Sequence record: MN642089.1
Length of the DNA: 64,000 nt
From: Klebsiella phage N1M2
Strand: one strand, 5' to 3'
Part shown: positions 5,337-51,910 of the stretch, piece after piece
How the letters are laid out: every line of letters begins with the position of its first letter
Position numbering within the stretch: position 1 is the stretch's first letter
Program-made: the position numbers and the translations under genes
Notes under the pieces: generated by a model
What the model was told of the DNA's origin: nothing
The model's input: only the letters and a program-made list of their open reading frames with translations
Databases searched by the model: none

Positions 5337-5373
5337 ATCGTTTTAACTCTTTCTATAGAAAAAGGTATTAACT

Positions 5374-36036: not shown

Positions 36037-36295
36037 AATCGCCTTCGCGTTTAAGATTATTAGCATAAGTAGACTTCTGTAAGTTTTCTGTCCACTCTCG
36101 TTGGGCATTGGCTGTCTTAGTCATATTCTCAGCAGTAACAGAGATACGGTCAACAGCAATAGTTAGTTTATCGATAGTATCTTTACTTACCGTACTATCT
36201 TGCTTAAAGATCAACCACCCACCAATGAATAAAACTAATATCCAAAGTGCAATGGTGTTCAAAGCAGCTAACTTATTTTTCAAAGCGTCATTCAT
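35846..36295 (-). CDS. i-spanin (type-II inner-membrane protein), 149 aa
   Basis: Short cytoplasmic N-terminus, one TM (IALWILVLFIGGWLIF), then a charged helical periplasmic domain. Its 3' half overlaps the lipoprotein ORF. ATGA-coupled to the upstream gene. Confidence 0.55.
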   Translation of the reverse strand: MNDALKNKLAALNTIALWILVLFIGGWLIFKQDSTVSKDTIDKLTIAVDRISVTAENMTKTANAQREWTENLQKSTYANNLKREGDYENLYEKYGYDPKRDSGTLSDLYDLRLRRSENIGSGDVRGSEDGTSKTNPVQKPASSSKAGTN

Positions 36296-37521
36296 CTTGT
36301 CTTTCCTAGATCAACAGCGTGAATCTTAAACATCCACCCTTTCATTAATGTTCCTGGATCACCTGGGTTAATGCTGTCGTTTGGAACAACGTTACCATCA
36401 AGAGTACCAGTAGTTAACATGGGGTATTTGTTATAGACACGCAAGTCGTGAGACCAGAGACGTTGACCAATACCATACGTCCTGATGTATGGAACTGGGA
36501 ACATCCCATTATCCACTACTAAAGGATGTTGGAACTTCTCTTCAGTGTGGAGCACAGTCGGGTAATGGAAGGTAGTCATAGGACTGACATCCACACCCAC
36601 ACTAGGGTTATCGATTAACACGATGAAACTATTATCAGCCAAGAGAGCTTGCTGCTTGTAAGTATCGAACTTAGTGAGGTTCGTTAACTTAGGTGTTCTG
36701 GTGTAGTGTTGATAGTTGAAGTAATGATGGATAACATCAAAAGCTGTGAGATCAATAGAGATACGATCATCAGCAACTTTATAAACAATATCTGTATCAA
36801 CCATCAGCTGTCCATTAACGACAACATAAATGGTTTTAGCATTCAAGTCATCTTTTACTTTTACTTCCCAACGTTTATTAGAAGTAGTCGAGACTTCTTG
36901 AAGAATATCCTTAGTAATCGGGATCGTTTTAACTTTACCGATTTTCTGGAAATTGAGAGCGCCAATGCGCAGGTCTTTACGATTCTTAATATAATCAAGA
37001 CCAGCGCCTAATAAATAGATTCCATCTTTACGTCCAACCGACCGAGTAAAGACACCATTAACTTGGAACAATGCATGATCATTAATATGATTGTAATCGA
37101 TATTTTGATACCTGTATTGTTCTATTCTGATATCAGGTGCACCATCAGAAGTGAGTAGGTCCTGTCTATCATTTGCGAGGTTTATGTTAGCCGGATAGTG
37201 GAAGTAACCATAGGTGAAAATACGTTCCAACTTAACATAACGGTACTTATCACCAGGCATAACGTCAGATAAAGTCAAGACATCATTTACTTTGGTATCT
37301 AACCATTTCTGAATAGTTAATGTTGGATTTTTGGCGAAGTCAAGTCGGTAATCTTGAAGAGTTATACAAACCTTATCTTTGAACATACTGTCATCAATGA
37401 CAATATAAAGAAGGTCAAACAACTTCTCAAGATCAGCGACGCTATAGTCAGCAATATCAACTATGTGATAGCCTGGTCTATAGTCTCTGTATCGCCCCAC
37501 TGAGTATTTGTATGTATACAT
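36292..37521 (-). CDS. hypothetical protein, 409 aa
   Basis: Clean ORF with RBS GAGG upstream. Its stop overlaps the i-spanin start (TCATGA). Confidence 0.7.
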   Translation of the reverse strand: MYTYKYSVGRYRDYRPGYHIVDIADYSVADLEKLFDLLYIVIDDSMFKDKVCITLQDYRLDFAKNPTLTIQKWLDTKVNDVLTLSDVMPGDKYRYVKLERIFTYGYFHYPANINLANDRQDLLTSDGAPDIRIEQYRYQNIDYNHINDHALFQVNGVFTRSVGRKDGIYLLGAGLDYIKNRKDLRIGALNFQKIGKVKTIPITKDILQEVSTTSNKRWEVKVKDDLNAKTIYVVVNGQLMVDTDIVYKVADDRISIDLTAFDVIHHYFNYQHYTRTPKLTNLTKFDTYKQQALLADNSFIVLIDNPSVGVDVSPMTTFHYPTVLHTEEKFQHPLVVDNGMFPVPYIRTYGIGQRLWSHDLRVYNKYPMLTTGTLDGNVVPNDSINPGDPGTLMKGWMFKIHAVDLGKTR

Positions 37522-37550: not shown

Positions 37551-38315
37551 ATGTCAAAAGATTCAAGGGTTCAAGTATCTGGCAAAATAGTTTATCCATG
37601 GAACCCGTTCCAGGATTTAGCTGATTGTCGTGTTACTGGAGAACCAGTACACGTTGAAGGTGGAAACAAAGGAGCAATTGTTGTTCCTCGTAATGGTCCA
37701 TTCTTCAGCCGTAACTTTGTTATTAAAAAGAAAGGGTCTGATCGCCCCCTTAGTATGGAAGCAGGTGAATATAGTTTCATCCATCCATTCGGTGCCTTCA
37801 TTAAACGTTACAACCGTTTAGCCTGGGGCGCTATTGTTATTAAGGGTGTTGCTACCCCTACTGATTACATTATTGAGTATGACACCATTGGTGGTGATTT
37901 TGTACTAAATGATGCAGCTTATGCGGAAGCAGTAGCTAATACTCTTACAGCCCCACGTACGATTGACTGGAACGATATTGTCAATCTACCTCTGGTATGG
38001 CCACCAGATCCACACGAACACCCAGCATCAGATACCATGAACTATGGTGACTTGATCGCTTGGATGCAATCTTACTTGGATGCCATCACAGATACCGACA
38101 CCAGTGTTAGTTTCGTATCTGAATTCAAGAAACACTTAGAAGCGGATCTTCAGGATGCCCACAAAGCAACCCTGGAGATGTTAGGTGTTGCGCATCTTAA
38201 AGACTGGGCGATGGCAGAGGTTAAAGATATCGAAGGTAACTCTACCGAACTGCTTGTTAACATCGCTGTCTTGAAAGAAGCCATTCGTGGGTATAGTCGT
38301 GGTGATTGGCGTTAA
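37551..38315 (+). CDS. small tail-fibre-module protein, 254 aa, carrying one phage tail-fibre repeat motif
   Basis: TIDWNDIVNLPLVWPPDPHEHPASD (DNA 37963-38040) matches the DW..I.NKP....H.H motif of T4/lambda fibre repeats and of the next two genes. Confidence 0.6.
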   Translation: MSKDSRVQVSGKIVYPWNPFQDLADCRVTGEPVHVEGGNKGAIVVPRNGPFFSRNFVIKKKGSDRPLSMEAGEYSFIHPFGAFIKRYNRLAWGAIVIKGVATPTDYIIEYDTIGGDFVLNDAAYAEAVANTLTAPRTIDWNDIVNLPLVWPPDPHEHPASDTMNYGDLIAWMQSYLDAITDTDTSVSFVSEFKKHLEADLQDAHKATLEMLGVAHLKDWAMAEVKDIEGNSTELLVNIAVLKEAIRGYSRGDWR

Positions 38316-38378: not shown

Positions 38379-41300
38379 ATGATCAAAGAAGACATTCCTT
38401 TATATAAACTTGACTTAACCGGTGAAGATCGGTTTAACAAAGTTAATATGGAATACATGTATCGTCAGGATGTAAAGAATAATAACATCGTCATACCTAA
38501 TTTCGCTCCATTCTATCAGAAGTCAGTAAGACTTTATGATAAGAACAAGAAGCCATTGATTGAAGGTGATGACTATGAGTTCTACGGGATTATGGGTAAG
38601 CTAACCAAGTTTACCGGTAAGCCTGTTGGATTGTTTATTCGTATCTTGAAAGATGAGATTACCGATTGGTATATCGATTACCAAGTTGTCGGTAACTTTA
38701 ATAAAATCACCAATGAAATCCTCAATATGCTTAAGAGCATTCATGAGGATGACCGTTATGTTGATTGGGAAAATATTAAGAATAAGCCATTGTGGTTTAT
38801 TCCTGAAATTCACCAACATGACCTGGCATATCAGATTTATGGTTTCACTGACTTAGTCCGTGAACTTAATCGTATTGCTGAACTGCAAGCCACCATGATC
38901 TCTGCACAAGACTTCATGGTTCAGACATTAAAACAACACTTGTTAGTTTATGTCGAAGGTTACCGTAAAGTTATTTATGATTTGGTTGACTCCCACATCA
39001 ATAACAAACATGATGCGCATGGTAACTATAAAGACAAGATAGGATTACCACTTGTTGACAACATCCCAGCAGCGACTCTACAAGAGACTCTGGAAGGTGT
39101 TCGTGATGACCTTACAATAACTCCGTTTAATGCCAAGCGTGCTGCTATGGCCGCTTCTGGGACCAATGAAAGGTTATATCCTTCTGGTTCTTTACCTATC
39201 CTTCGTTACGGTTCAGATACATTCATTCCTCCAACTATTTCAGGTTCCTTTGAAGGTCTTGGTGGGTTGAATAGACAGTCTGGTGCGATTGTTGAAACAG
39301 ATGGTACCTTGCTGATGCTTCAACACCGTAATAACGGTAAGATTCGTGGATTGTACTTCATTCGCTCTATCAACTGGCGTTCGCAAGACCCAGATTATGA
39401 ATTCACCTCTTATCAATACATCCATCCAACAGCTATAGCTGATGGCGCGCAACTTGATACCATTGTAAATGGCTCCAACCGTTATATCATGGTGGTAGGT
39501 GACTCAGTTAAAAATATCTGGTACTGGTGTGAAACTAAAGGTACGTTTAACCCTAACCGACACATCCTCCACCGTATTACTGGTGAATGGGTGGATAGAG
39601 ATCTGGCGGATAGGCGTGGTGGTTGGATTGATTACCCTACTTCTAAAATGTGTCTATTGGCTGACTCCAATTATGCGAATACTTGGTGTATTGTGCAGGG
39701 ATTTAACCTTTGGCAATTTGAAGAACGTAGACAATTGGAACATCCTTCTAACTGGTATAACGTTCGTGGGTGTAACCTGGGTGAAGCTGGTTTCTCATTC
39801 CATGTCTTCCATAACCTTTCCAGTAAAGGGATACGAGCTAAGGTAGATTTCACCCATCCCGTTTTTGGTAACAAGAACGATCAGTACTTCACACCTTGGT
39901 GGCCGCAGTTTGGTAAAGACGGTGAAGAGGACTATGAGATTATTTCTCATTATGCCAAATATGAACCTCCGGTTAAGGTAGTTTGGGGGCACCGTAGTAT
40001 TTTCAGTTATTGGAAAAAAGATCCTAAAGAAGATATTTGGAACTTTAGACTCCAATTTACAACTGCTGAAAGTGATAAACCCGGTGGTTGGAATGGTTAT
40101 CACGCAAACTTCAGAGCCAAGTTAACATTTGACTTTAATGGCGATAATGTTACCGTTCACGTCAGACCTACTGAAGGTAACCAAAGACTTTATACCATCG
40201 ACCCTTATAACCGCAAACCTGGGGTTAAAGAGTACGATGAGTATTATAAATGGATCTTTACTAACAGTTATCCTGATGGTTGTGACTTGATTGGTCATGC
40301 AATGGTTGCAGATGACCTGATCATATTTGCAGATGGGGCGTCAAACGGGACATTCCCAAGTCCTTATTTTTTATTGCACGCGGACTGGTTAAAATCTGCT
40401 GAAAACTTCCTGATGCCCATGGGGCAGAGTAGTTATTACGATGGACCGAAAGGTCATTATCGTACCTTTGATGAGTTAAACCCTCTTGGGTTAAGCGCAG
40501 GTTTCGTTGGTAACTATTATTTCCCTATGAATAGTAACGATCCTAAGTCTGGTTGCATTATGACCAAACAACTCATTGTTAAAAATGGTCAAAGTGTACC
40601 AGAATGGGTGGGTCGTAAGACCGACATCTATAATGATGATTTCAGCTGCCGTAAACCACCACAAATCTCGAACTATGATGGGAATAATGTAGAGCACTAT
40701 CCTTACCTTTCAGAAGTACACCGCACCAACCTAGGTCAACAGGTTAGATTTAATAACATCTCTAAACCTGTAGGTGTTGCGAACCCATATAACAGACCAA
40801 ATATCTATGCGGTATCTATGATGGGTGCATCAGCGGGTACACGGTTAATGGGTAATGGGGATGGTGGGTTTGGATTTGTTGGTGATGGGTTGTTAGCTTG
40901 GGAAATGGAAACCAAGTTACAGGATGATATTATCACATTCACTCCCAAAGTTGTATTTGATCTGAATACATTCGTAAGAAACCAGTTGGTTCAAATATTC
41001 GCCCCTCTTGGGTTTACTGCCGAGCAGGTAAGAGATTCTTGGAACGTATCTCGCTTCGTTGATACGCGAGGATACATTAGAGAGATATTCGGGGTTTATC
41101 GTATTGATCCTAATGGTCATTGTATCACTGGGGTAGTTGTTGGAATGTTGGGTGGGTATTCGTCCCCTACCAATAAAGATGGATATACCTACTACCGGGA
41201 TGTTATTTGGAACCAAGCATCGCCACCTAAGAGTGTCCTTACTGACAAGTTGGGTGCTCCAGGCGGTGGAGACTATTGGTATAATTATTGGAATGCCCCA

Positions 41301-42098
41301 GGTGGTTCCAAAATTTATCAAGGCGCTTGCACTTCAATTCCATTTAAGAAACGTGACCCAGATACGGGACAGGTAACTGACAACTCCACGTATCTTATCA
41401 ATCTTCGTTTCGATGGTAAATATTCCGCCCTTTATGGGGATGGTCGACCCAATATCTTTATCGAGATGGATGCCGCTACACACGGTATTATTCAATTACA
41501 ACAGTCATTTGGAGCATACTGGAATCTTATCGGTTCTGTAGATCACATGCCTTGGTATGGAGTGATTAATACCACAAAAGGATTGAATCTATTTGAAACA
41601 GCTGGTAACGGTGGACAAGTTCTGAACCAATATAAAGGAGCTTGGGAAGCAGCCGCACCAAGTGACTACTCCGGACCTATGGCTGTTGGTGCGACGAACA
41701 TCATCACACCAGCCTATACAGTCTATTTCCAGAAAATGACCAACATACTGTTAGCAGGAAAGATGTACAATATCCCGGCTCAGTATATCGACATCCTTGA
41801 CCAAGATCCAGATCCGGCTAATAAGGTTTATTATATTTACCTTTATTATACCGGTGGTATGGCCAAATATGTCGTCACTAATGAAGTACGACCAGAAACA
41901 TCAAGTCAGTCATTAATCGCTACTGTTTATTGTGGACCTACCCAGATTGACAGAATCGTTCCTTATAACAGATTCTCTCTTGATGGCGCTTCCTTCACAA
42001 CCAACAGACAAGGTTCTTCTGTACTTGGTTCTACTGGTTCTGTATTTGAAATTGGTGATACGGATGCTATTTTGAAACCTGGTGACTTTATACCTTAA
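38379..42098 (+). CDS. tail fibre / tail spike protein, 1239 aa
   Basis: N-terminal fibre motif VDWENIKNKPLWFIPEIHQHDLAY (about 38757-38830). Paralog-level similarity to the next gene (PPTISGSFEGLGG vs PPPITGSFEGLGG, GLYFIRS vs NLYYIYK). Size and position fit a fibre or spike. Confidence 0.75.
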   Translation: MIKEDIPLYKLDLTGEDRFNKVNMEYMYRQDVKNNNIVIPNFAPFYQKSVRLYDKNKKPLIEGDDYEFYGIMGKLTKFTGKPVGLFIRILKDEITDWYIDYQVVGNFNKITNEILNMLKSIHEDDRYVDWENIKNKPLWFIPEIHQHDLAYQIYGFTDLVRELNRIAELQATMISAQDFMVQTLKQHLLVYVEGYRKVIYDLVDSHINNKHDAHGNYKDKIGLPLVDNIPAATLQETLEGVRDDLTITPFNAKRAAMAASGTNERLYPSGSLPILRYGSDTFIPPTISGSFEGLGGLNRQSGAIVETDGTLLMLQHRNNGKIRGLYFIRSINWRSQDPDYEFTSYQYIHPTAIADGAQLDTIVNGSNRYIMVVGDSVKNIWYWCETKGTFNPNRHILHRITGEWVDRDLADRRGGWIDYPTSKMCLLADSNYANTWCIVQGFNLWQFEERRQLEHPSNWYNVRGCNLGEAGFSFHVFHNLSSKGIRAKVDFTHPVFGNKNDQYFTPWWPQFGKDGEEDYEIISHYAKYEPPVKVVWGHRSIFSYWKKDPKEDIWNFRLQFTTAESDKPGGWNGYHANFRAKLTFDFNGDNVTVHVRPTEGNQRLYTIDPYNRKPGVKEYDEYYKWIFTNSYPDGCDLIGHAMVADDLIIFADGASNGTFPSPYFLLHADWLKSAENFLMPMGQSSYYDGPKGHYRTFDELNPLGLSAGFVGNYYFPMNSNDPKSGCIMTKQLIVKNGQSVPEWVGRKTDIYNDDFSCRKPPQISNYDGNNVEHYPYLSEVHRTNLGQQVRFNNISKPVGVANPYNRPNIYAVSMMGASAGTRLMGNGDGGFGFVGDGLLAWEMETKLQDDIITFTPKVVFDLNTFVRNQLVQIFAPLGFTAEQVRDSWNVSRFVDTRGYIREIFGVYRIDPNGHCITGVVVGMLGGYSSPTNKDGYTYYRDVIWNQASPPKSVLTDKLGAPGGGDYWYNYWNAPGGSKIYQGACTSIPFKKRDPDTGQVTDNSTYLINLRFDGKYSALYGDGRPNIFIEMDAATHGIIQLQQSFGAYWNLIGSVDHMPWYGVINTTKGLNLFETAGNGGQVLNQYKGAWEAAAPSDYSGPMAVGATNIITPAYTVYFQKMTNILLAGKMYNIPAQYIDILDQDPDPANKVYYIYLYYTGGMAKYVVTNEVRPETSSQSLIATVYCGPTQIDRIVPYNRFSLDGASFTTNRQGSSVLGSTGSVFEIGDTDAILKPGDFIP

Positions 42099-42158: not shown

Positions 42159-45100
42159 ATGAAAGATTTAGATATTGTCGATATCGATTACTCGGCTAAG
42201 AAAGCTGAGTTTAAGAAAGAAGACAAAGTAGATCTTGCTAAAATTTCTCCACCATGGATAGTACCAGAAGAAGGTCCGATGTATGGGGACAATACTCTTC
42301 GGGTTATCAGAGGTGGATTGGATTTAGTAAGAGGTAAGGATTGGGTTCCTGTAACGGACGTCCCAAAATTATCAGAGCTTACTGGTAAACCTGTTTATCT
42401 TTATATCGAATTAAAAGACCACGTCCTGGCAACAGGTGGTGAAGTAAGTGTTGTTTATCAGCGAGTGGGTAAACCAGTAATATCTGTTAAGACATTATTG
42501 GATATGCTTCAGCAAATGGTTATTGAAGGGAAACCAGTTGACTGGGAAACCCAGATCAATAACAAGCCAGACACTTACTACCCAGCGTGGCACTCTCACG
42601 ACATTCAAAACCCAAATGAGTTAGTTGGGTTTGGTGGTCTGGTTGAACTGTTTAGTATGTTTACTTACAGAGCAAAAGCCGACGGTGGGAAGGTTCGTGA
42701 GTTACTGGAAAAACTCCAGAAAGAAGTTTGGGATAAATTAAACTATACCCAGAAACTTCTTTGGGGTGTAATTATGGATCATAGCCGTAATTACCAAAAC
42801 CCACATAAGTTAAAGCCAGCCGATATCGATCTGGGTAATGTTGGGAACTTTGCAACTGCAACTCCTCAACAAGATGCCGACGCAATGCGTGATGATCTGT
42901 ACTCGACTCCAGCTGGTCTGAAAAGACTCACTGAAGAACTTGCGCCAGATACAGAAGACTTCATTGTTCAGTCCGAATTACCTTTCGGGTACTTTGGTTC
43001 TGGCATCTATATCCCGCCACCAATCACAGGTTCTTTCGAAGGACTGGGTGGTGACTATGAGAACTCGGCTTTCTGTCAGGAAGGGAATGGTTGGACTGTT
43101 GGGTTGTTAAGAGCATTTGATGGTCGTGTTAAGAACCTGTATTACATTTATAAGACAGATGTAAGAAACAGGGACGAGAAACTTGTTCCTTGGTTACACA
43201 CCTACGTCCAATACCAGCATCCAACAATTACTGCTGACGGCTTGGAACCTAACTACGTTATTAACGGTTCTAATAACGATATCATCATGTTGGGTGTTAG
43301 TGATAACCCGACAGAACAATTGAAAGCGGATGAGAAGTTTTATATAAGCTTATCCAACTCAACTTTCGATCCAAATAGCCATGAGTTTAAAGAAACCAAC
43401 TTTGCTGAATTAAGAGGTCCTGAGGATTTAGTTCCGGCCGCTGGTTATACCACAATAGCACATGTTGGTTCTTGGGTTTATCTGATTGTTTCTTATAACA
43501 CCAAAGAAGGATTCACCCAACCAGATGGTGTTGGTGTAACCAACTATCAGCAATGGTTCTATCGTGCTAAATACTCAGACATCAATAATAAAGATGTTGA
43601 CAAAGTAGTATTCCAGCAAGTTGATGTTACCTATGATAATGTCTCCAGAGTGAGAAAATCTGGTAAGGCAATGGCGATGATAGATTATCAGGCCAATGCT
43701 GCTGGCGAAATAACACGAGGGTTGGTTAACTACATCCCTTCTGTAACCACTGCAGAATCTCACAGACGTCGACAATTTATCATTGTTAACAATCCAAATA
43801 ACCCAGCTTTGTCACGGGTGAGGATACTAGCTATCTCATACGCGACCAAGACAACTCAAAACTCAGCGTATGCTGGTTGGGCGAACTTGATCGTCGATTA
43901 TGAATGGAACGGGGAAACGAATACCTGGACACTCTCTCCTCATTGGGAGTTTGGGACCTGGAGCGTTGAAACTGGGTCCATCATAAGTCCTACCAAAAGT
44001 TGGTTAGAATGGTGTAACGGGAATAATGAATCCCGATATCATTCTCAGTCATTCGCTATTAACGCCGGTAGTTATATTCCTGGGTTTGGTTTTGTTAGTA
44101 TCGGTTCTAGACAAACAGGTACACCGCCACTAATGGCGATATCTACGATCTATAACCGTGATGGTGATCCTCAACGCGATTATGAGTATATGGGTTTACC
44201 TCCTAACTGGACCACTGATTCTGGACTGTATAATGGTTGGTGGAACCAAATGGTATTAAGATCTCCATTTGGTGTATCTGGGTTCCCTCGTTTCTATGCT
44301 GACCTGTATCGCTTGGATGGTAAGATCAGACAAACCCCAATAGAAATATTCATGGCAGAAACTGAAGATCAGGATACTGCTAGTTTCTATCGTATTACTG
44401 AAGGTGGGGAAGGTGACAATTACGATAAACGTGATTCTCTCCAATCCAAATACATTCAGATGCCAATCTATGGTCGTAAAACAAACTCTAATTTTGGTAA
44501 GGTTAGTGGAACTCACTACGATGTGGCTACTGTTAACAGACCTAAGAAGAAGGATGTTAAAAGTAGAGAGACAGGTGTGTTTGGATATTTAAGACGCGGG
44601 ATCATTAAGAACCCTGGCGCACCATACATGTTCAGTCGTAAAACTTATGACGACGGAAGCATTAAAGAAATTGTTCAGGAAAATGATGGCAGTATTATTG
44701 TTAACCTGAACCTTAACTTTACAATGGAGCCACTGTCAAAAGTAATCTACGCCAAACCTATCGCTCAAGAGAAATTGAGAATACCTAAAGCAATTTGGGA
44801 AGGTGTGATTAAAACAGCTTTAGAAACCCACTATAGCAAAACTATAGATATGGGTGTCAGTTTCTATGTCTGTCAAGACCCAGGAACTAATGCTGACCAA
44901 CCATACTGCATGTTCTCAATTATTTACCACATCACCGACAATCCTAGGTTAACCAGATCTATCATTGGTCGGTTTAATTGGGATGTTGAGTCGGTAGGAG
45001 CGGATGGTATCAGAGTCATGAAGATGGGTGCTATTGATTATCCATTTAGTGGTTCTAACTACGCCAAGCAACGGTTAGTTCCTCCTTCTCAAAACCCAGA

Positions 45101-45923
45101 GAACGTTATCTCTTATAATGAACACCAAACTAATACTGATGGATCATGGGCTGGTTTGGAATATCGTTATGGTCTTAACATCTGTTATCCACATGTCGAA
45201 ATTCTTGACTTCCCAGAGGAAGGACCTAGAAATATGGAGATATGCTGGTTTACAGGAATACAGATTAAGACAACAGGTAACGCCACCACTCAACGTACAT
45301 TCTTAAGGGTGCGTAATAACCAAACCATCGAGGCTACTTCAGCCACTGGTAATGGTCAGTCCTTTAACGAATACTACTGGCAAGTCCAGGCCAACCCACA
45401 GTGGGGATGGTTGCAAGGTGTTCCTGCTGCTGAGTCTGGTGGTGCGATGGACTTGATGGTTCCATGGAAAGGTCCTGAGGGAAGTCTCCAAGCAGACCAA
45501 GACAAGTACGTTATGCTTGGCGCTACTTACGTTGAGGGTAACTGGTCTGTATTTATCAATGCCGATATTAATGTAACCTTTAATGGATACTCGATGCCGG
45601 CTAAGATGACCAACTGGGATTTGAGAGATCTTACCGATGTCTATCGTGATTCAACATTTTACCTTTACTGTGTCTCTGATGGTTCTGCTGCTCGGTATGA
45701 TATATCCAAGGTTTTAAGACACCATAACCCATCAGCTATTCTGGTTGGTGTCATTACGACAGATTCCTTTGGTATTGTTACCATTCAGCGTTATCAAAGT
45801 TTCACCATTAGTGGTTATCCTTTAACCCGTCAGCGTGATACAGGTGTGCCAGTATCTTCTGGAGCTATCACGGAACAAGGTACATATAAGTTCCTGAAAC
45901 GTAGCGAGTTGTATACAGGTTAA
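42159..45923 (+). CDS. tail fibre / tail spike protein, 1254 aa (paralog of the preceding gene)
   Basis: Fibre motif PVDWETQINNKPDTYYPAWHSHDIQN (about 42535-42606). Shared GSFEGLGG block with the preceding gene. Confidence 0.75.
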   Translation: MKDLDIVDIDYSAKKAEFKKEDKVDLAKISPPWIVPEEGPMYGDNTLRVIRGGLDLVRGKDWVPVTDVPKLSELTGKPVYLYIELKDHVLATGGEVSVVYQRVGKPVISVKTLLDMLQQMVIEGKPVDWETQINNKPDTYYPAWHSHDIQNPNELVGFGGLVELFSMFTYRAKADGGKVRELLEKLQKEVWDKLNYTQKLLWGVIMDHSRNYQNPHKLKPADIDLGNVGNFATATPQQDADAMRDDLYSTPAGLKRLTEELAPDTEDFIVQSELPFGYFGSGIYIPPPITGSFEGLGGDYENSAFCQEGNGWTVGLLRAFDGRVKNLYYIYKTDVRNRDEKLVPWLHTYVQYQHPTITADGLEPNYVINGSNNDIIMLGVSDNPTEQLKADEKFYISLSNSTFDPNSHEFKETNFAELRGPEDLVPAAGYTTIAHVGSWVYLIVSYNTKEGFTQPDGVGVTNYQQWFYRAKYSDINNKDVDKVVFQQVDVTYDNVSRVRKSGKAMAMIDYQANAAGEITRGLVNYIPSVTTAESHRRRQFIIVNNPNNPALSRVRILAISYATKTTQNSAYAGWANLIVDYEWNGETNTWTLSPHWEFGTWSVETGSIISPTKSWLEWCNGNNESRYHSQSFAINAGSYIPGFGFVSIGSRQTGTPPLMAISTIYNRDGDPQRDYEYMGLPPNWTTDSGLYNGWWNQMVLRSPFGVSGFPRFYADLYRLDGKIRQTPIEIFMAETEDQDTASFYRITEGGEGDNYDKRDSLQSKYIQMPIYGRKTNSNFGKVSGTHYDVATVNRPKKKDVKSRETGVFGYLRRGIIKNPGAPYMFSRKTYDDGSIKEIVQENDGSIIVNLNLNFTMEPLSKVIYAKPIAQEKLRIPKAIWEGVIKTALETHYSKTIDMGVSFYVCQDPGTNADQPYCMFSIIYHITDNPRLTRSIIGRFNWDVESVGADGIRVMKMGAIDYPFSGSNYAKQRLVPPSQNPENVISYNEHQTNTDGSWAGLEYRYGLNICYPHVEILDFPEEGPRNMEICWFTGIQIKTTGNATTQRTFLRVRNNQTIEATSATGNGQSFNEYYWQVQANPQWGWLQGVPAAESGGAMDLMVPWKGPEGSLQADQDKYVMLGATYVEGNWSVFINADINVTFNGYSMPAKMTNWDLRDLTDVYRDSTFYLYCVSDGSAARYDISKVLRHHNPSAILVGVITTDSFGIVTIQRYQSFTISGYPLTRQRDTGVPVSSGAITEQGTYKFLKRSELYTG

Positions 45924-45966
45924 TAGAATGGGGAGGAAACTCCCCTTTCTTATTTAGGAGATTTTC

Positions 45967-48900
45967 ATGTTTGTAGATCCAGATAAACCCTTACCGCCTG
46001 CTGGTGCTAAGGTTGATACACTTGGTTCTGTTCTGGAAGCAATTATTGAAATTGGAAATGCTAAAGCTGTTAGCACCGGTGATGCGGTAGAGTTTGAAAA
46101 ACGTATTACTGAAGCATTACAGGAAACTGATAAAGTAATTGATGGTTTCAGACAAGACGCCACCAACAAAATTAAAGAACACACCGATAAAGAAGGTGCT
46201 GTTCATGGCGAGACCAAAGAAACTGCTGGTTTGGGTTTAAAAGAAAACTGGAAGATGGCGACACCCCAGGAACATTTGGATGGTGAATCACAAGAGAGCT
46301 TCTGTAACCCCCTTGGATTAGCTGCGTTAGTTAAACGCTACATGTCCATCGATCCAACCAACTATATTCGTTCTCGTCTGATGCCAATTGCATCAGGTGG
46401 TCAATTGGGTAATGTCCCTCAGTGGCCATTTAACTGGCGTGAAGGTGAGGTGGTAGAATCACCATTATCATCTATGGATTATTATACACAAACTCCTTGG
46501 CAGTTCTCTACAGACCAAGGTGTGCGTTTATATCCTTCTATGAACGGTTCAGATATCCTTACTCAGAAAAGACCTGACGTAGGGCGTGCTAGACGAGCTG
46601 TAACGCCTTGGGGCGGTACCGATGTTCGTATTTATAATAGCACCTTAGATATCCGTAGAACACGTCCTGGTGTCTTACGTGCAGAATCTAACATAGAACC
46701 AAATAACCAATTGTTAAAAGGTTCACCGCATCTTTTCGATAGACACAGCGTTTTCTACATAGAAAACCAAGATGTCAAGGTCAGAGCGTTTAACAAAATC
46801 AGATTGCCATTCGACACACTTAAGAATGATGGGGCGTTCGCTAAGAACTGGGATGGGATTGTGGAATCTAGAGAGTCCACTATCTATAACCCGGTAATTA
46901 CAATGCAACGTGGTAACTTAGGTGCTGGTGAAAGTATTTATCTTTCAATCAATCTGGATTTGTATAGCTTCACTGAGCATGGCACGGCTGCCAAAGACGG
47001 CCCTGGTAACCCAGCTGAAACAGTCGCCACACTAGGTGACAAATATGACACCATCAACTGGTTGGTGGGTAACAAGAAGTTCGTCATTTATAATCGTCCT
47101 AATGGAGCAGGTAAAGGTATTTTCCTTGACTTGAGAAGTATTCTTAATTTCACTCCTGCGCAATTGGATGGATTCTGGGTCAATGCTGACCATTCCCACG
47201 AACTTCATGTAGCGTTTACCTGGTTGAACAGACTCAAGGGTGAGTTCGCCATTCGTGTTCCATTGGGTTTCTACTCTAAAGACCGTAAATACTACATCAA
47301 CTACTACATGGACTTGTCATTCAAATCCAAAGAACTTGGTGATGGTAAGACAGCAACTATCACTATTGATTCACTGCGAGATATTGATACCAATATCCAG
47401 ACCTTGAATGATAACTTCCAGGTAGAACCAGACGGGCGTTTTGTTGAGTATCCTGCCGATGTCACTAACGATATCTTCCACCCACGTATTTTTGATGGGA
47501 TCTTTGAATCTCAGGGTGGGCATATCAAAACCTATACGTACTATAACCGTCAGTACGTTGGTTACTACCAACATAATGTTGGTGGGACTAAAGAGTGGAT
47601 CGCTAATGGTGATGAGATTAAACCTAAGTTGATTAAATACAACTACGGTCAAATCTCCACACTTAACCAAGACGGTCTGTATGGTGACCACCTAAGACAT
47701 ATCCCGCTGGGTGTAACTGGCGATACCGTCAACTATCTGACATTAACTCGTGATTGGTCAAACACCTATCGCTGGGGTATCGTGAATGCAGAACTGGATA
47801 ACAAGCCAGTTATGTATAGCAGTGCTGATCATGCATATGGTCCTTGGCGTAATACCTTGATCTGGGTAAACCCTAACTACACTAGAGTTCCAGACTTCTT
47901 AGTTGTGAATGAGGAAAACTCCTCCAACTTTGATGTGAACTGTATGGTGTTCAATACCCAGAATGAGTTTAAGGGTTATGCTCAATTCTCTTATAGTACT
48001 GCAGATAGTCAGTCTACTATAGAGGGTGTTGATCCAGTTGAGATAGATGACCAAATCCTGTCTTACATCGCTACCTTTGGTGGTGGTTGGACAAAGAACC
48101 ATCGACAGATGTTCTACTTCCAAAACAGACTGTACTTCTTTAGTCAGTGTCTGTCCATCCCAGAATGGCCGGCTGATGACGTTGACTGTTACTATGGTTG
48201 GATTAGCGGTGCTTACATCGACGTGACCGATGGCGTCAAAACCATCAAGATCAACGGTAATTTAAAAGATCAAACCGTAGCTAAACCGCTCAAAGTAAAT
48301 AACAAGAAGTCAGCAACTAACGATTGGAATAGCGTATTTGGACGAGATCGTTTCGACTCTACCGATACATACCTTATGTTGATGAACCGTAATGGTAACG
48401 TTTCCAAATACAAACTGATGGTTAACCTGGCGCCTCATAACAACTTCTACTTCGAATTTGAATTGGTCGTTGATGCGGGTAATGGAACTACCACTCTGCA
48501 ACCTGACCCTAGTGCTATCGATCCAGTGTTCCCATATGACCCTGCAAAAGGTTATGCGGTTGACTATGAAGCCGTCTCTGCATATGGCACATTAGTTCCA
48601 CACCACATGCACGTAAACTTCCAGTCCCCGGTAATGATGAAGAAATCTCTTTGGAGTTATCGCAAGACGCCTGGTGTTTATGGTGTGTTCTCAATGTCAG
48701 GGAAAACTACCATTGTTAATGGTGGGTTGATGAATGCCATTGAGGGAACTAACATTTATCCAATGGGATCGTTATTAACCATTGGTGGTGGTAACACACT
48801 AGTTAAAATTCCGGTAGATGCCAAAGATTCATTCTATCCTGCAAGTGATGAACTGTTTGTAAGACAGAACGGTACCATTCTTGAGTTGTATGGTCGTAAC

Positions 48901-51864
48901 TATAACCCTAACAACTACGAGACAGAACCTAACGCTGGTGTTGTTCCATGTGGGTTCTTGAAGAATGGAACATTTACTCATTACGACCCGGAAGGTTGGA
49001 GAAACGCATTACTCCCAGTTATTGATAGTTTAAGAATGAACTTTTATGGTTATGGTTCATCCTTCCCTGCCTTTATGGGTATTTATGGTGAAGGTAAACC
49101 AATTAACCGTTTCTTCTTGAACATCAAAGGGACTAAGTTGAAATGGGATACTGCGCAAGGTAGAGTAATACCTCTCAGTGGTTCCAACTCAATTAAAATC
49201 AACGATCAAGTTGTTCAGCCAAATGGTAGTGGGATTTATACAATACCTAATAACTATACTGGCGTATTGAACATTGAGATTTCAGGTTTGCTGGAATTGA
49301 AATGGGCTAAAGGTATGGTTGAATTGGTTGACATTGGTTCTAGTGTTAACAAGTTGAACTTTAAAGGTTCTACTGACTTCACTATCACTAGTGAATTACC
49401 TGGAAACATCGTCGATTTGGATTATGTCTTCGAAGGCGCTACCGGCTCTACTTATCCAGGTATCGAGAAATGGAATACGCAATACGTTCTGAGTATGGAA
49501 GGGACGTTTAAGAATACCGCCAACTTCAATGCCCCATTAGACTCATGGAACGTTAGTGGTTGTAAATCCATGAAAGAGATGTTCATGGGAACTAAGAAAT
49601 TTAATCAACCTATCAATAGTTGGGACGTATCCAATGTGACCACAATGGAATCTATGTTTGAAAACGCCGTGCTTTTCAATCAACCATTGAATAATTGGAA
49701 GTGCGAAAAACTCACTACCGCATCTAAAATGTTCAAAGGGACGATTTCATTTGATGGGGACATGACAGGCTGGTTAACAAAAACCACTTCTGATCTATCA
49801 GAGATGTTTATGAATACCCAGGCATTCACTGGGAAAAGCATTACCAAGTGGTATGTCCAATTTGTAACCGATGTCTCTAGTATGTTCAAAGGTTCCCAAA
49901 AGTTCATGACTAGCGGAGATTTGAGTTATTGGAGATTGGCTAGATGTAGTAATTTTAGTCGGATGTTTGAAGATTCTACTTTCAATGCCGCCGTTAACGG
50001 ATGGGTTTTTGGAAAGTTGTCTGATTGTAGTTATATGTTTAGCGGAACAACTAATTTTAACCGCCCACTTACACAATGGGAATTTGATAACGTTAAAATA
50101 GCCAAAGGAATGTTCCAACAATCTAAAGCTTTCAATCAGGACCTGAAAGATATTTTCTGGGTAAATTGTATTTCATTTAACTCGATGTTTTATGCCTCTA
50201 AGTTTAATGCCTCGGTTTCCGGCTGGATGTTCGCTAGAGAACAAGACCCGGCATCAAAAACAGGAATAGATATGAACTATATGTTCGCATTTACTTCTGA
50301 CTTTATAGGGGATGGATTGGAAACATGGAACACTGAATACGTGACAAGCATGGAAGGTATGTTTAAAAATTGCAACATCTTGGATAAAGACTTATCCATG
50401 TGGGATGTTTCTAAAGTTAAAAACATGGCCTATATGTTTACAGCTTGTAAAGTTTATAACCAATCGGTTAATGACTGGGATGTGAGTAATCTCCTGTACG
50501 CACGCTACATGTTCTCGGAAACAACCCTTTACAACCAGCCTATGGATAAATGGACTACTTCGTCACTCCAGACCATCCAAGGTATGTTCCGTGGCACTAA
50601 GGCATTCAACCAAGATATATCCATGTGGGATACTTCTAAAATTCGTGATATGTCAGAAGCATTTATGAAAGCTGAGAAGTTCAACTACGACTTATCTAGC
50701 TGGAATACTGATTCTGTAACCACGATGCGTGGAATGTTTGAAACCACAGGTGCGTTTGGTACCGGTGATAATAAGTTCTCACTGAGTAAATGGAATACCA
50801 CACAGGTTAGAGACGCGGGTAGAATGTTTGCTGAAAGTAAATATAATGCCAGTGTTGAAGGGTGCTCATGGAGTACTTCTGCTGACCTGACTGGGATGTT
50901 CCAGAATAACCCAGTGTTCAACCAGCCACTTACTGGTTGGGTAGTTAATAACGTTAGATACGTTAAGAATATGTTCTATGGAGCCACTTCCTTTAATAGT
51001 TCTCTTGAAGGACTAAACTGGGAAAAATGTGAAGACTTCAGTTCCATGTTTGAAGGCTGTACTTCCTTCAACCAAGACTTGGGATCTTGGCAGTTTAACA
51101 AATGGTTAAATGGATCTATTCTTTCATCCAACATGTTTAAGAACTGTTTCGCTTTCAAAGGGACCGGTCTTGAAAAATGGGATGGGCTTAACTTCACTAA
51201 CGTCGCTGGAATGTTTAACGGTTGTACCAAGTTTGCAGCAGACATTAGTGGTTGGAAAATCACTCGTATCACCAACTTGGTTAGTACATTTGAAGGATGT
51301 GCTTCGTTTAACTGTGACCTCACTAATTGGGATGTTTCCAAAGTAACATTGTTGACTTCTACCTTTAAAGGTTGTTCAATGTTTAATGGTGATATCAGTA
51401 ATTGGAATACTGGTCTCGTTACAGATATGAACGGAACATTCATGGATTGTACCAACTTCAAAGGTGACATTAGCAAGTGGAATGTTAGAAACGTTATCAG
51501 ATTTGTTGATACGTTCAATACAGCATCTTCATTCGCTGGTGATCTGTCTGGTTGGGATGTAACTACTTCCATTAACTTCTCTGGTATGTTTAAAGCCGCT
51601 GTATCGTTTAACTCTAATATCGGTAGCTGGAATACTGGACGTGCTGTTAATATGAATGACATGTTCAATGGTGCTGTTAAATTCAACCAACCTATCGGTG
51701 GGTGGAACACAAGTATCACTACTGACATGATTTCTATGTTCAATGGTGCATTGGCGTTCAACCAAGACTTGAGTAAGTGGGATGTTAAACGTGTTAACAA
51801 ACACGCTGACTTCGCTACGAACACTCCTTCTTGGGTTGCTCCAAAACCAAACTTTGTAGTATAA
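45967..51864 (+). CDS. giant tail fibre / adhesin, 1965 aa, with C-terminal array of about 25-28 DUF285-like repeats
   Basis: RBS AGGAGA upstream. About the last 800 aa are 26-30-aa units of the form FNQPL..WDVSNVT.M..MF....FN. Confidence 0.85.
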   Translation: MFVDPDKPLPPAGAKVDTLGSVLEAIIEIGNAKAVSTGDAVEFEKRITEALQETDKVIDGFRQDATNKIKEHTDKEGAVHGETKETAGLGLKENWKMATPQEHLDGESQESFCNPLGLAALVKRYMSIDPTNYIRSRLMPIASGGQLGNVPQWPFNWREGEVVESPLSSMDYYTQTPWQFSTDQGVRLYPSMNGSDILTQKRPDVGRARRAVTPWGGTDVRIYNSTLDIRRTRPGVLRAESNIEPNNQLLKGSPHLFDRHSVFYIENQDVKVRAFNKIRLPFDTLKNDGAFAKNWDGIVESRESTIYNPVITMQRGNLGAGESIYLSINLDLYSFTEHGTAAKDGPGNPAETVATLGDKYDTINWLVGNKKFVIYNRPNGAGKGIFLDLRSILNFTPAQLDGFWVNADHSHELHVAFTWLNRLKGEFAIRVPLGFYSKDRKYYINYYMDLSFKSKELGDGKTATITIDSLRDIDTNIQTLNDNFQVEPDGRFVEYPADVTNDIFHPRIFDGIFESQGGHIKTYTYYNRQYVGYYQHNVGGTKEWIANGDEIKPKLIKYNYGQISTLNQDGLYGDHLRHIPLGVTGDTVNYLTLTRDWSNTYRWGIVNAELDNKPVMYSSADHAYGPWRNTLIWVNPNYTRVPDFLVVNEENSSNFDVNCMVFNTQNEFKGYAQFSYSTADSQSTIEGVDPVEIDDQILSYIATFGGGWTKNHRQMFYFQNRLYFFSQCLSIPEWPADDVDCYYGWISGAYIDVTDGVKTIKINGNLKDQTVAKPLKVNNKKSATNDWNSVFGRDRFDSTDTYLMLMNRNGNVSKYKLMVNLAPHNNFYFEFELVVDAGNGTTTLQPDPSAIDPVFPYDPAKGYAVDYEAVSAYGTLVPHHMHVNFQSPVMMKKSLWSYRKTPGVYGVFSMSGKTTIVNGGLMNAIEGTNIYPMGSLLTIGGGNTLVKIPVDAKDSFYPASDELFVRQNGTILELYGRNYNPNNYETEPNAGVVPCGFLKNGTFTHYDPEGWRNALLPVIDSLRMNFYGYGSSFPAFMGIYGEGKPINRFFLNIKGTKLKWDTAQGRVIPLSGSNSIKINDQVVQPNGSGIYTIPNNYTGVLNIEISGLLELKWAKGMVELVDIGSSVNKLNFKGSTDFTITSELPGNIVDLDYVFEGATGSTYPGIEKWNTQYVLSMEGTFKNTANFNAPLDSWNVSGCKSMKEMFMGTKKFNQPINSWDVSNVTTMESMFENAVLFNQPLNNWKCEKLTTASKMFKGTISFDGDMTGWLTKTTSDLSEMFMNTQAFTGKSITKWYVQFVTDVSSMFKGSQKFMTSGDLSYWRLARCSNFSRMFEDSTFNAAVNGWVFGKLSDCSYMFSGTTNFNRPLTQWEFDNVKIAKGMFQQSKAFNQDLKDIFWVNCISFNSMFYASKFNASVSGWMFAREQDPASKTGIDMNYMFAFTSDFIGDGLETWNTEYVTSMEGMFKNCNILDKDLSMWDVSKVKNMAYMFTACKVYNQSVNDWDVSNLLYARYMFSETTLYNQPMDKWTTSSLQTIQGMFRGTKAFNQDISMWDTSKIRDMSEAFMKAEKFNYDLSSWNTDSVTTMRGMFETTGAFGTGDNKFSLSKWNTTQVRDAGRMFAESKYNASVEGCSWSTSADLTGMFQNNPVFNQPLTGWVVNNVRYVKNMFYGATSFNSSLEGLNWEKCEDFSSMFEGCTSFNQDLGSWQFNKWLNGSILSSNMFKNCFAFKGTGLEKWDGLNFTNVAGMFNGCTKFAADISGWKITRITNLVSTFEGCASFNCDLTNWDVSKVTLLTSTFKGCSMFNGDISNWNTGLVTDMNGTFMDCTNFKGDISKWNVRNVIRFVDTFNTASSFAGDLSGWDVTTSINFSGMFKAAVSFNSNIGSWNTGRAVNMNDMFNGAVKFNQPIGGWNTSITTDMISMFNGALAFNQDLSKWDVKRVNKHADFATNTPSWVAPKPNFVV
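49440..51790 (+). repeat. protein-level tandem repeat array (DUF285/PF03382-like, W[DN][VT]S..T.M..MF)
   Basis: Repeats are visible in the translation of 45967-51864. They are degenerate at DNA level. Confidence 0.8.
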
Positions 51865-51873
51865 ACCATAAAC

Positions 51874-51910
51874 TCCCTACCCTTCCTTTCGGAGGGGTAG
51901 GGGTTATGTT
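51874..51910. terminator. bidirectional terminator
   Basis: tccctacccttcc-tttc-ggaggggtagggg (13 bp with GU pairs) followed by ttatgtttactttatt. Confidence 0.75.

What the first reader, a model, noticed from the sequence alone, without database searches (positions are those of the whole stretch)
45967..51864. Giant 1965-aa tail fibre ending in about 25-28 tandem DUF285-like (WDVS..T.M..MF) repeats
About the last 800 residues are a regular array of 26-30-aa units (FNQPL..W[DN]VS.VT.M..MF....FN). This is the hallmark of the DUF285 family, best known from Mycoplasma and Firmicute surface lipoproteins. It is unusual as the distal domain of a phage fibre encoded with enterobacterial-type codon usage. 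The array is degenerate at DNA level, so it is old or under diversifying selection. It may be a modular receptor-binding solenoid.
Basis: partly seen in the sequence, partly recalled or inferred. Interest (0 to 1): 0.75.

Follow-up and report, generated by a model that had tools for sequence, protein, structure and literature searches.

The report
Jumbo-phage fibre protein with DUF285 solenoid
This is gene 118 of the known Klebsiella jumbo phage N1M2: a 1965-residue protein in the baseplate-fibre gene cluster that ends in about 31 copies of a 25-residue leucine-rich-type repeat, most likely a host-surface adhesin; the repeat type is already known in many large phages, so the finding is real but only moderately new.

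Summary
The ORF (45967-51864, +, 1965 aa) and its C-terminal repeat array are real. Pfam DUF285 scores E=7e-201. The array is invisible as a DNA tandem repeat.

The protein is 100% identical to N1M2_118 of Klebsiella phage N1M2, a phiKZ-like jumbo phage. AlphaFold models the array confidently (pLDDT 90), and every top PDB match is a leucine-rich-repeat solenoid.

The gene is the last of four consecutive genes that share the phiKZ gp131-like fibre attachment module. Residues 19-135 of the giant match the second half of that module (hhalign 98.7%), and the cluster lies between gp130-like and spike genes as in phiKZ.

Across relatives the roughly 1050-1160-aa body is constant, while the array ranges from 0 to about 58 units. 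Changes occur in whole units, including an old block duplication of about 11 units.

The array evolves twice as fast as the body but is under overall purifying selection. DUF285 arrays occur in 111 phage records, including a virion-associated Goslar protein, so this one is not unusual. Virion location and ligand are inferred, not shown.

The parts
45967..51864 (+). Whole gene: 1965-aa protein, identical to N1M2_118 of Klebsiella phage N1M2
   Evidence: P0001, 100% identity and coverage. PHROG 17273 matches over the N-terminal 1314 aa.
45956..45960 (+). AGGAG ribosome-binding site, 6 nt upstream of the ATG
   Evidence: Sequence read.
46021..46371 (+). aa 19-135: helices plus the conserved 'HT..G.VHGETK..GL..K.NW.MAT' motif. 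This is the second half of the phiKZ gp131-like fibre attachment module; the first ~155 columns (globular part) are missing.
   Evidence: hhalign of A4 against A3: probability 98.7%, E=2.9e-16, query 19-135 to module columns 156-268. BLASTP against the 1254-aa paralogue gives E=0.002. PHROG 2163 and 14667 match aa 42-141. The model has helices at 18-35 and 40-73.
46744..49116 (+). aa ~260-1050: beta-rich body, conserved in length and sequence in all relatives, ending at the module boundary '...PINRFFL'
49132..49446 (+). aa 1056-1160: small beta domain and N-terminal cap leading into the array
   Evidence: The model has short strands at 1056-1131 with pLDDT 73-90, also covered with pLDDT 84-95 in the C-terminal model. 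It is present only in relatives that carry an array.
49447..51801 (+). aa 1161-1945: about 31 tandem DUF285/PARCEL units, modal length 25 aa. Consensus: x-F-N-x-[DP]-[LI]-x-x-W-[ND]-[TV]-S-x-V-T-[DN]-M-x-x-M-F-x-G-[TAC]-x.
   Evidence: AF2 model pLDDT 89.9, pTM 0.78. All top PDB Foldseek hits are LRR solenoids.
49447..50301 (+). Block A (aa 1161-1445, units 1-11): first copy of an old ~11-unit block duplication
   Evidence: The best internal offset is 285 aa, with 45% identity over 100 aa. A against B scores 492 (38% identity, in register), against 317 for A/C and B/C.
50302..51153 (+). Block B (aa 1446-1729, units 12-22): second copy. Yubaba lacks exactly two units here (aa 1471-1520).
51802..51861 (+). 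aa 1946-1965: conserved C-terminal cap, '...F..NTPSWVAPKPNF..'
   Evidence: The tail is about 16-29 aa in the orthologues counted. The W..P[KR]P motif is invariant or nearly so.
51874..51903 (.). 13-bp GC-rich stem-loop between the convergent giant gene and the spike gene; likely a bidirectional terminator
37551..38315 (+). 254-aa protein made only of the gp131-like N-terminal module; first gene of the fibre cluster
   Evidence: BLASTP against phiKZ gp131 aa 8-227, E=8e-10. PHROG 2163 and 23008 'tail fiber protein'.
38379..42098 (+). 1239-aa fibre-cluster paralogue: full gp131-like module plus a ~1000-aa body
42159..45923 (+). 1254-aa fibre-cluster paralogue
36292..37521 (-). Homologue of phiKZ gp130, the baseplate protein beneath which the phiKZ fibres dock
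   Evidence: BLASTP E=5e-14. Docking role from PMC13250141.
51915..52910 (-). Baseplate spike / assembly protein with a gpV apex motif; closes the cluster in the position that gp164 holds next to gp165 in phiKZ
50976..51869 (-). 297-aa antisense ORF inside the array: a by-product of the repeat's 'palindromic' coding, not a gene
   Evidence: It has the same 25/50-aa periodicity and no significant Pfam hit. This property was described for PARCELs in PMC2996958.

Best explanation
The gene encodes a baseplate-fibre component of a phiKZ-like (Chimalliviridae, OBP/pEt-SU lineage) jumbo phage. It has four parts.

1. A short N-terminal helical segment carrying the conserved H..H/GL..N..AT motif. This is the part of the gp131-like module that forms the helical bundle at the fibre base in phiKZ. 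I infer that it joins the protein to the fibre complex built by the three upstream paralogues.
2. A conserved beta-rich body of about 800 aa (aa ~260-1050), which is a remote structural paralogue of the two upstream ~1240-aa proteins.
3. A small cap domain.
4. A distal solenoid of about 31 turns made of 25-residue DUF285/PARCEL leucine-rich-type repeats.

I infer that the solenoid is an accessory adhesin for a host-surface component. The invariant F and W and the hydrophobic positions build the core, and the variable hydrophilic positions (1, 7, 8, 10, 12, 25) form the binding face. The array grows and shrinks in whole units between conserved caps, from 0 to about 58 units in relatives, which tunes its reach and its surface.

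Shown here: the domain anatomy, the family membership of the repeats, the solenoid prediction, the homology and synteny with the phiKZ fibre cluster, and the copy-number variation. Inferred: presence in the virion, attachment through the helix bundle, and binding to the host. The ligand is unknown.
For: - Repeats: DUF285 at E=7e-201 and a PARCEL repeat hit.
- Structure: confident solenoid model (pLDDT 89.9, pTM 0.78). All PDB matches with E<=0.001 are LRR proteins such as TLRs, FLS2, MIK2, InlA and SHOC2.
- Cluster membership: four consecutive + strand genes share PHROG 2163. The 254-aa gene matches the phiKZ gp131 N-terminus (E=8e-10) and the divergent neighbour matches gp130 (E=5e-14). Giant aa 19-135 match the module profile at 98.7% probability.
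- phiKZ precedent: cryo-EM shows gp131/133/134/135 N-termini forming a hetero-hexameric fibre base with a six-helix bundle beneath gp130 (PMC13250141).
- Synteny: the same cluster is conserved in Yubaba, OBP, ZPAH34 and PS1.
- Body: it is fold-similar to ~1150-1250-aa virion and tail proteins of related jumbo phages.
- Modularity: the body length is constant while the array varies, at 0, ~2, 11, 15-21, 26, 29-32 and ~58 units. One relative carries an unrelated 680-aa C-terminus.
- Evolutionary rate: array dN is 0.22 against 0.10 for the body, and substitutions concentrate at non-core positions.
- Goslar precedent: gp161 is DUF7941 plus DUF285. It is one of the DUF7941 proteins that the Goslar preprint reports as virion-associated and proposes for host recognition.
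Against: - No proteomic or imaging evidence places this protein in a virion.
- The N1M2 paper saw no tail fibres by EM.
- The OBP orthologue gp145 is annotated 'hypothetical protein', whereas gp141-144 are 'putative virion structural protein'. This may mean it was not detected in the OBP virion proteome. I could not read that paper.
- The giant lacks the globular first half of the gp131-like module, so its docking mode may differ.
- The array is absent in some relatives with identical synteny (PS1). It is therefore not essential for infection in this lineage.
- Global TM-scores to solved LRRs are low, at 0.10-0.21.
- No DUF285 protein has a solved structure that sequence search can detect, and none has a defined ligand that I could find.
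Confidence: 0.55

Rival explanations
1. It is a virion fibre component, but the DUF285 array is not a specific receptor binder. It would act as a length-tunable spacer or shield, or as a low-affinity sticky surface for capsule, biofilm matrix or other environmental polymers. Specific recognition would be done by the other fibre paralogues.
For: The array length varies from 0 to ~58 units without loss of the gene. Selection is purifying overall, with no gene-wide positive-selection signal. The two upstream paralogues have their own large, divergent C-terminal bodies.
Against: Solenoids of the LRR type are, by established knowledge, typically binding scaffolds. Substitutions concentrate on non-core positions. 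One relative has swapped the array for an unrelated module, which is typical of receptor-binding tips.
Confidence: 0.22
2. It is not a virion protein at all. It would be made during infection and act inside or on the infected cell, for example as a protein-binding LRR scaffold or a superinfection-exclusion or host-manipulation factor. Its place in the fibre cluster would be historical.
For: OBP gp145 is annotated only as hypothetical while its neighbours are annotated as virion structural. No fibres were seen on N1M2. The giant has lost the globular half of the attachment module.
Against: The protein has no signal peptide or lipobox at its N-terminus (sequence read), so it is not exported like the Mycoplasma or Firmicute DUF285 lipoproteins. 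It keeps the conserved helix and motif segment under strong conservation; H72, G77, H80, E82, G88, L89 and N94 are invariant in 26 sequences. Synteny between the fibre paralogues and the spike is conserved across genera. The body has the fold of virion and tail proteins.
Confidence: 0.15
3. It is a member of the DUF7941 'fibre cloud' family recently proposed for chimalliviruses, with an LRR effector domain.
For: Goslar gp161 combines DUF7941 with DUF285. The preprint describes LRR-bearing DUF7941 proteins.
Against: PF25613 (DUF7941) is in the library and detects phiKZ gp126, gp127 and gp143 and Goslar gp161. It gives no hit in this protein, even at E<=10 on the N-terminal 1160 aa, and none in its paralogues.
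Confidence: 0.03

Closest known systems
Orthologues in OBP/pEt-SU-like jumbo phages: Serratia phages Sureiya and Yubaba, Pseudomonas phage OBP gp145, Erwinia AH04 gp144, Kosakonia Kc263, Edwardsiella pEt-SU, Aeromonas D3/D6/D9/LAh10/ZPAH34/PS1
   Same: They share the N-terminal ~1050-1160-aa body (33-79% identity), the position in the fibre cluster, the array caps and the C-terminal W..P[KR]P motif.
   Different: Array length differs. The N1M2/Serratia clade has 29-32 units, against 20-21 in most orthologues, 15-17 in some, ~2-3 in ZPAH34 and none in PS1. None of these proteins has been characterised experimentally. Their annotations are 'hypothetical', 'outer surface protein' or 'BspA family LRR surface protein'.
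phiKZ gp131-gp135 fibre paralogues (cryo-EM atlas, PMC13250141)
   Same: They are a cluster of consecutive paralogues next to gp130 that share an N-terminal attachment module but have different distal domains. The giant keeps the helix and motif half of that module.
   Different: The giant lacks the globular half of the module. Its distal domain is a DUF285 solenoid on a ~1000-aa body, whereas gp131 ends in a seven-bladed propeller. The proteins here are two to four times larger.
PARCEL / DUF285 (PF03382, TIGR02167) repeat proteins of Mollicutes, Firmicutes, marine bacteria, protists and giant viruses (PMC2996958)
   Same: They have the canonical 25-residue unit in tandem arrays, a conserved hydrophobic periodicity with variable hydrophilic positions, and an open antisense frame with the same period.
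   Different: This protein has no signal peptide or lipobox. The array is the C-terminal part of a phage structural-cluster protein. It falls below the cut-off of the Mbov_0838 lipoprotein model (423 bits against 500).
Goslar gp161 (DUF7941 + DUF285), part of the proposed chimallivirus 'DUF7941 fibre cloud' (bioRxiv 10.64898/2026.04.21.720040)
   Same: A chimallivirus protein in which a virion-anchoring N-terminal module carries a C-terminal DUF285 LRR, proposed for host recognition.
   Different: The anchoring module is different (DUF7941 against the gp131-like helix segment). Goslar gp161 has only about three units in 483 aa, against ~31 units in 1965 aa here.
Vibrio phage vB_VhaM_pir03 ORF 200 (19-kb PARCEL gene; PMC7765460)
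   Same: A giant DUF285/PARCEL ORF in a jumbo phage. It has no sign of recent transfer by GC content, and its function is unknown.
   Different: It has no homology to the N-terminal body of the N1M2 protein. tblastn matches cover only the repeat region.

Membership tests
DUF285 / PARCEL repeat (PF03382, TIGR02167) | Profile HMM match above the curated threshold | tested here: met
   PF03382 scores 655.5 bits against a cut-off of 25, in 9 stretches. TIGR02167 scores 101.9 bits against 30.
DUF285 / PARCEL repeat (PF03382, TIGR02167) | Tandem arrays of a canonical 25-residue unit with conserved hydrophobic and variable hydrophilic positions (PMC2996958) | tested here: met
   Autocorrelation peaks at lags 25, 50 and 75. 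W-to-W spacing is 25 in 19 intervals. F21 is invariant and W9 nearly so. Positions 1, 7, 8, 10, 12 and 25 are the most substituted.
DUF285 / PARCEL repeat (PF03382, TIGR02167) | 'Palindromic' coding: the antisense strand stays open and encodes a repeat of the same period | tested here: met
   An antisense frame is open for 295-297 codons with peaks at lags 25 and 50. Antisense stop density is 1.7 per 100 codons in the array, against 3.5-8.5 in the body.
Mycoplasma/Firmicute DUF285 surface lipoproteins (e.g. NF045896, Mbov_0838 family) | Full-length model above cut-off, and an N-terminal signal peptide with lipobox | tested here: not met
   NF045896 scores 423.5 bits, below its cut-off of 500. 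The N-terminus MFVDPDKPLPPAGAKVDTLGS... has no hydrophobic signal region and no lipobox cysteine (by inspection).
Leucine-rich-repeat solenoid fold | One turn per repeat, with a short beta-strand and hydrophobic core; structural similarity to solved LRRs | tested here: met
   The model has pLDDT 89.9, with roughly one short strand or bridge per ~25 residues over most of the array. All 29 PDB hits with E<=0.001 are LRR proteins, with probability up to 0.96. Global TM is only 0.10-0.21, so the curvature or twist differs. This rests on a prediction only; there is no solved DUF285 structure.
BspA / TpLRR family in the strict sense (Pfam LRR_5, PF13306) | Match to the LRR_5 profile | tested here: not met
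   The Pfam scan at E<=0.01 returned DUF285 only. The 'BspA family' name comes from automatic database naming.
phiKZ gp131-like baseplate fibre paralogues | Helix plus H..(N)PH....GL..V.N...AT motif segment of the N-terminal module | tested here: met
   hhalign probability 98.7%, E=2.9e-16, for aa 19-135. The family-to-family comparison gives 96.1%.
phiKZ gp131-like baseplate fibre paralogues | Globular N-terminal domain (first ~155 module columns) | tested here: not met
   The alignment starts at module column 156. The giant has only 18 residues before the matched segment.
phiKZ gp131-like baseplate fibre paralogues | Location in the paralogue cluster next to the gp130 homologue | tested here: met
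   The cluster is conserved in OBP, Yubaba, ZPAH34 and PS1.
phiKZ gp131-like baseplate fibre paralogues | Physical presence in the fibre of the virion | not testable with these tools
   No proteome or map is available for N1M2. The OBP orthologue is annotated 'hypothetical', and the OBP paper is not held.
DUF7941 chimallivirus filament proteins (PF25613) | DUF7941 profile match | tested here: not met
   There is no hit in the giant or its paralogues. The positive controls phiKZ gp126, gp127 and gp143 and Goslar gp161 do hit.

The most novel reading that the evidence does not exclude
The three large paralogues (1239, 1254 and 1965 aa) and the 254-aa module-only protein would assemble into one hetero-oligomeric baseplate fibre, analogous to phiKZ gp131x3/133/134/135. 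Only one chain would carry a freely expandable DUF285 solenoid (0 to ~58 turns in nature). Whole-unit and block duplications would then act as an evolutionary 'length and surface dial' for host adhesion. In this reading phages are also a main vehicle spreading PARCEL arrays between bacteria, protists and giant viruses.
Probability: 0.15. Interest if true: 0.6.

Novelty: new member of a known kind. Interest (0 to 1): 0.38.

Why it matters
Host recognition by nucleus-forming jumbo phages is still poorly understood, and these phages are candidates for therapy. In the phiKZ and Goslar cryo-EM work the fibre distal parts remained unmodelled or were fitted only at low resolution.

This protein family offers a clean natural experiment. 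It has a constant ~1050-1160-aa body, followed by no array, an array of 2 to 58 DUF285 turns, or an unrelated C-terminal module.

If the array binds the host surface, it would give DUF285/PARCEL, a widespread repeat with no solved structure and no defined ligand, its first testable function. It would also give engineers a modular handle on jumbo-phage host range. If it does not, the finding remains a routine annotation improvement for a protein currently labelled 'hypothetical'.

Tried and rejected
- **PDB sequence searches.** The protein and the family profile found nothing usable. The paralogues gave only chance-level hits.
- **Profile-profile comparison of the giant's body with the upstream paralogues' bodies.** Only aa 40-141 align. 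Body paralogy therefore rests on Foldseek matches alone.
- **DUF7941 membership.** Rejected.
- **Recent horizontal acquisition of the array.** Rejected: GC and GC3 equal the rest of the gene.
- **Antisense 297-aa ORF as a gene.** Rejected: it is a by-product of the repeat.
- **Gene-wide positive selection.** Not seen, but dS is saturated, so the test is weak.
- **OBP genome/proteome paper.** Could not be read by DOI or by a remembered PMC id.
- **ZPAH34 and N1M2 papers.** They contain no virion proteomics.
- **Sigma-70 promoter scan.** Uninformative: fewer hits than in shuffles, and phiKZ-like phages use their own RNA polymerases.
- **Local BLAST against phiKZ proteins.** Three scripts failed because locus L004 was not exported to the sandbox. 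Protein comparison was used instead.
- **Listeria 'phage' hits.** They come from short unannotated contigs and were not used as precedent.
Full report
**1. Observation**

ORF 45967-51864 (+) is real and encodes 1965 aa. An AGGAG site lies 6 nt upstream of the ATG, and a 13-bp GC-rich hairpin follows the stop codon.

The C-terminal 40% is strongly periodic. Residue autocorrelation is 0.232 at lag 25, with harmonics at 50 and 75, against a background of 0.065. The first 1100 aa show no periodicity. Pfam DUF285 (PF03382) scores 655 bits, E=7e-201, and NCBIfam's PARCEL repeat model also passes its cut-off.

A repeat HMM built from the protein tiles aa 1161-1945 with about 31 units. Most are exactly 25 aa. 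A few have insertions, around aa 1388-1445 and 1596-1649.

Tandem Repeats Finder sees no DNA-level array, so the repeats are old. No other DUF285 gene is present in the window.

**2. Identity of the window**

The protein is 100% identical to 'hypothetical protein N1M2_118' of Klebsiella phage N1M2, whose genome is 253,367 bp. [quoted passage not shown] N1M2 infects K. aerogenes, and its authors saw no tail fibres by EM and did not discuss this gene.

The nearest phage records are Serratia phages Sureiya (79% aa) and Yubaba (75% aa). Full-length orthologues at 32-45% identity occur in OBP, AH04, Kc263, pEt-SU, Shewanella SXP01 and Aeromonas D3/D6/D9/LAh10. These are phiKZ-like jumbo phages; OBP and Yubaba are classified in the genus Petsuvirus.

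**3. Anatomy**

- **aa 19-135.** Two helices are followed by the conserved 'HT..GAVHGETK..GL..K.NW.MAT' motif. This segment aligns with 98.7% probability (E=2.9e-16) to columns 156-268 of a profile of the N-terminal module. That module is shared by the three upstream genes, their orthologues and phiKZ gp131/133/134/135. The first ~155 columns of the module are absent from the giant.
- **aa 122-241.** Low-confidence region, probably flexible.
- **aa 1056-1160.** A small beta domain and cap.
- **aa 1161-1945.** The array.
- **aa 1946-1965.** A conserved cap, 'W.APKPNF'.

**4. Structure of the array**

AlphaFold2, run on an alignment of 25 sequences, gives pLDDT 89.9 and pTM 0.78. The model has about one short strand or bridge per unit. 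All 29 PDB matches with E<=0.001 are leucine-rich-repeat solenoids: TLRs, FLS2, MIK2, BRI1-type receptors, internalin A and SHOC2. Global TM-scores are only 0.10-0.21, which implies a different curvature or twist. The solenoid reading stands, but on prediction only.

**5. Genomic context**

Four consecutive + strand genes carry the same N-terminal module, PHROG 2163:

- 254 aa at 37551-38315
- 1239 aa at 38379-42098
- 1254 aa at 42159-45923
- 1965 aa at 45967-51864

The 254-aa protein matches phiKZ gp131 residues 8-227 (E=8e-10). The divergently transcribed neighbour matches gp130 (E=5e-14). Downstream lie a spike/baseplate assembly gene with a gpV apex motif and an SbcC-like gene, in the arrangement of phiKZ gp164 and gp165.

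In phiKZ, cryo-EM shows that the N-termini of gp131 (x3), gp133, gp134 and gp135 form a hetero-hexameric fibre base with a six-helix bundle, docked beneath gp130. There are twelve such fibres per baseplate (PMC13250141). The whole N1M2-type cluster is conserved in Yubaba, OBP, ZPAH34 and PS1.

**6. Comparative behaviour of the array**

In 46 full-length homologues the array starts at residue ~1146-1177. The unit counts are:

- 15-17 in some
- 20-21 in most
- 26 in one
- 29-32 in the N1M2/Serratia clade

A search of 1.84 billion cluster representatives finds only 18 families with the body at E<1e-30. Their lengths run from 1049 to 2624 aa. Some have no array and end at '...PINRFF'. Others have ~2, 11, 18-24 or ~58 units. 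One has an unrelated 680-aa C-terminus with no Pfam family.

ZPAH34 keeps only two or three units between the same caps. PS1 has none, and no separate DUF285 gene follows.

Yubaba differs from N1M2 by an exact two-unit (50-aa) deletion. Within N1M2, units 1-11 and 12-22 are each other's best match: offset 285 aa, 38% identity, score 492 against 317 for the other block pairs. This indicates an old block duplication that accounts for the ~11 extra units of this clade.

**7. Evolutionary rate**

Against Yubaba, dN is 0.10 in the body and 0.22 in the array. dS is saturated at 1.5-2.6, which gives ratios of ~0.07-0.09. The array therefore evolves about twice as fast but shows no gene-wide positive selection.

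Among the five closest orthologues, F21 never changes and W9 almost never does. Positions 1, 7, 8, 10, 12 and 25 change in 38-51% of comparisons. GC and GC3 of the array equal those of the rest of the gene and the phage, so there is no sign of recent transfer or of 'enterobacterial' codon usage.

**8. How unusual is it?**

DUF285 arrays are detected in 111 of 50,697 phage records. They include Synechococcus myophages, Lak megaphages, Campylobacter CP220-type phages, Vibrio and Aeromonas jumbo phages, PAU, Butyrivibrio siphophages and Goslar.

A 19-kb PARCEL ORF was reported in Vibrio jumbo phage pir03 in 2020. DUF285 proteins are packaged in particles of the algal giant virus AaV.

Goslar gp161 is DUF7941 plus DUF285. 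It belongs to the virion-associated DUF7941 set that a 2026 preprint proposes as baseplate-anchored host-recognition filaments. The N1M2 protein itself has no DUF7941, and the positive controls do hit.

**9. Interpretation**

The best-supported reading is a baseplate-fibre paralogue whose distal DUF285 solenoid is an accessory host-surface adhesin. I put this at 0.55.

What is shown: the anatomy, the repeat family, the predicted fold, the homology and synteny with the phiKZ fibre cluster, and the modular copy-number variation. What is inferred: incorporation into the virion through the helix segment, and binding to the host. The ligand is unknown.

The main counter-evidence is as follows:
- There is no virion data.
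- No fibres were seen on N1M2.
- OBP gp145 is annotated 'hypothetical' next to neighbours annotated as virion structural.
- The globular half of the attachment module is lost.
- The array is dispensable in some relatives.

The rivals are a structural but non-specific spacer or sticky surface (0.22), a non-virion intracellular or cell-surface role (0.15) and DUF7941 membership (0.03, rejected at the sequence level).

**10. Verdict**

The 'tail fibre' label is plausible but indirect, and the claim that the arrangement is unusual does not hold. The protein is already in public databases with an automatic LRR name.

This analysis adds three things:
- placement of the gene in the gp131-like fibre cluster;
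- the module boundaries;
- the 0-58-unit variation with whole-unit and block changes.

Novelty: a new member of a known kind. Interest: moderate (0.38).

Noticed in passing
window 50976-51869 (-): A 297-aa antisense ORF lies inside the repeat array and has the same 25/50-aa periodicity. Antisense stop codons are depleted in one frame across the array (1.7 per 100 codons, against 3.5-8.5 over the body). This fits the 'palindromic' coding property described for PARCELs. It has no significant Pfam hit and is probably not a gene.
   Followed up: yes
window 42113-42136, 45930-45945, 51874-51903: A GC-rich hairpin follows each of the three large fibre-cluster genes. The last one (13-bp stem) sits between convergent genes and could terminate both. 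The hairpins may set the relative expression of the paralogues.
   Followed up: partly
window 38379-42098 and 42159-45923 (+): The two upstream ~1240-aa genes are paralogues of each other: 29% identity over the first ~400 aa and 22% over the last ~330 aa. Their middle regions are divergent. Neither has any Pfam family.
   Followed up: partly
window 37551-38315 (+): The 254-aa module-only protein carries a 'DW..I.N.P..(W/F)PP.PH.HP' motif. It resembles the repeated motif of a solved 'tail collar fibre gp4' (PDB 9d93) only at a chance-level E-value (0.056). In Yubaba the orthologue is annotated 'short tail fiber protein'.
   Followed up: partly
window 17802-19979 (+): The local GC peak (0.49, against ~0.41 for the window) coincides with the major head protein gene (PHROG 3231). 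Its GC3 is 0.51, against 0.37-0.42 in the fibre genes. A 489-aa antisense ORF (18423-19892) overlaps it and is probably spurious.
   Followed up: partly
window 51805-51864 (last 20 codons of the giant gene): Synonymous divergence from Yubaba drops to pS 0.21 here, against 0.65-0.73 elsewhere in the gene. With only 20 codons this may be noise, or it may reflect a DNA- or RNA-level constraint near the terminator.
   Followed up: no
window 5368-6555 (-) and 5374-6597 (+): Two long ORFs of ~400 aa overlap almost completely on opposite strands. At most one is likely to be a real gene.
   Followed up: no
L007 2855-4306 (Goslar gp161): Goslar gp161 combines DUF7941 (aa 4-186) with a short DUF285 segment (aa 385-456). 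DUF285 arrays have therefore been grafted onto two different chimallivirus anchoring modules.
   Followed up: yes
P0006: A 1708-aa orthologue (50% identity) sits on a 267-kb contig deposited as Salmonella enterica. This is probably a jumbo-phage genome carried in a bacterial assembly.
   Followed up: no
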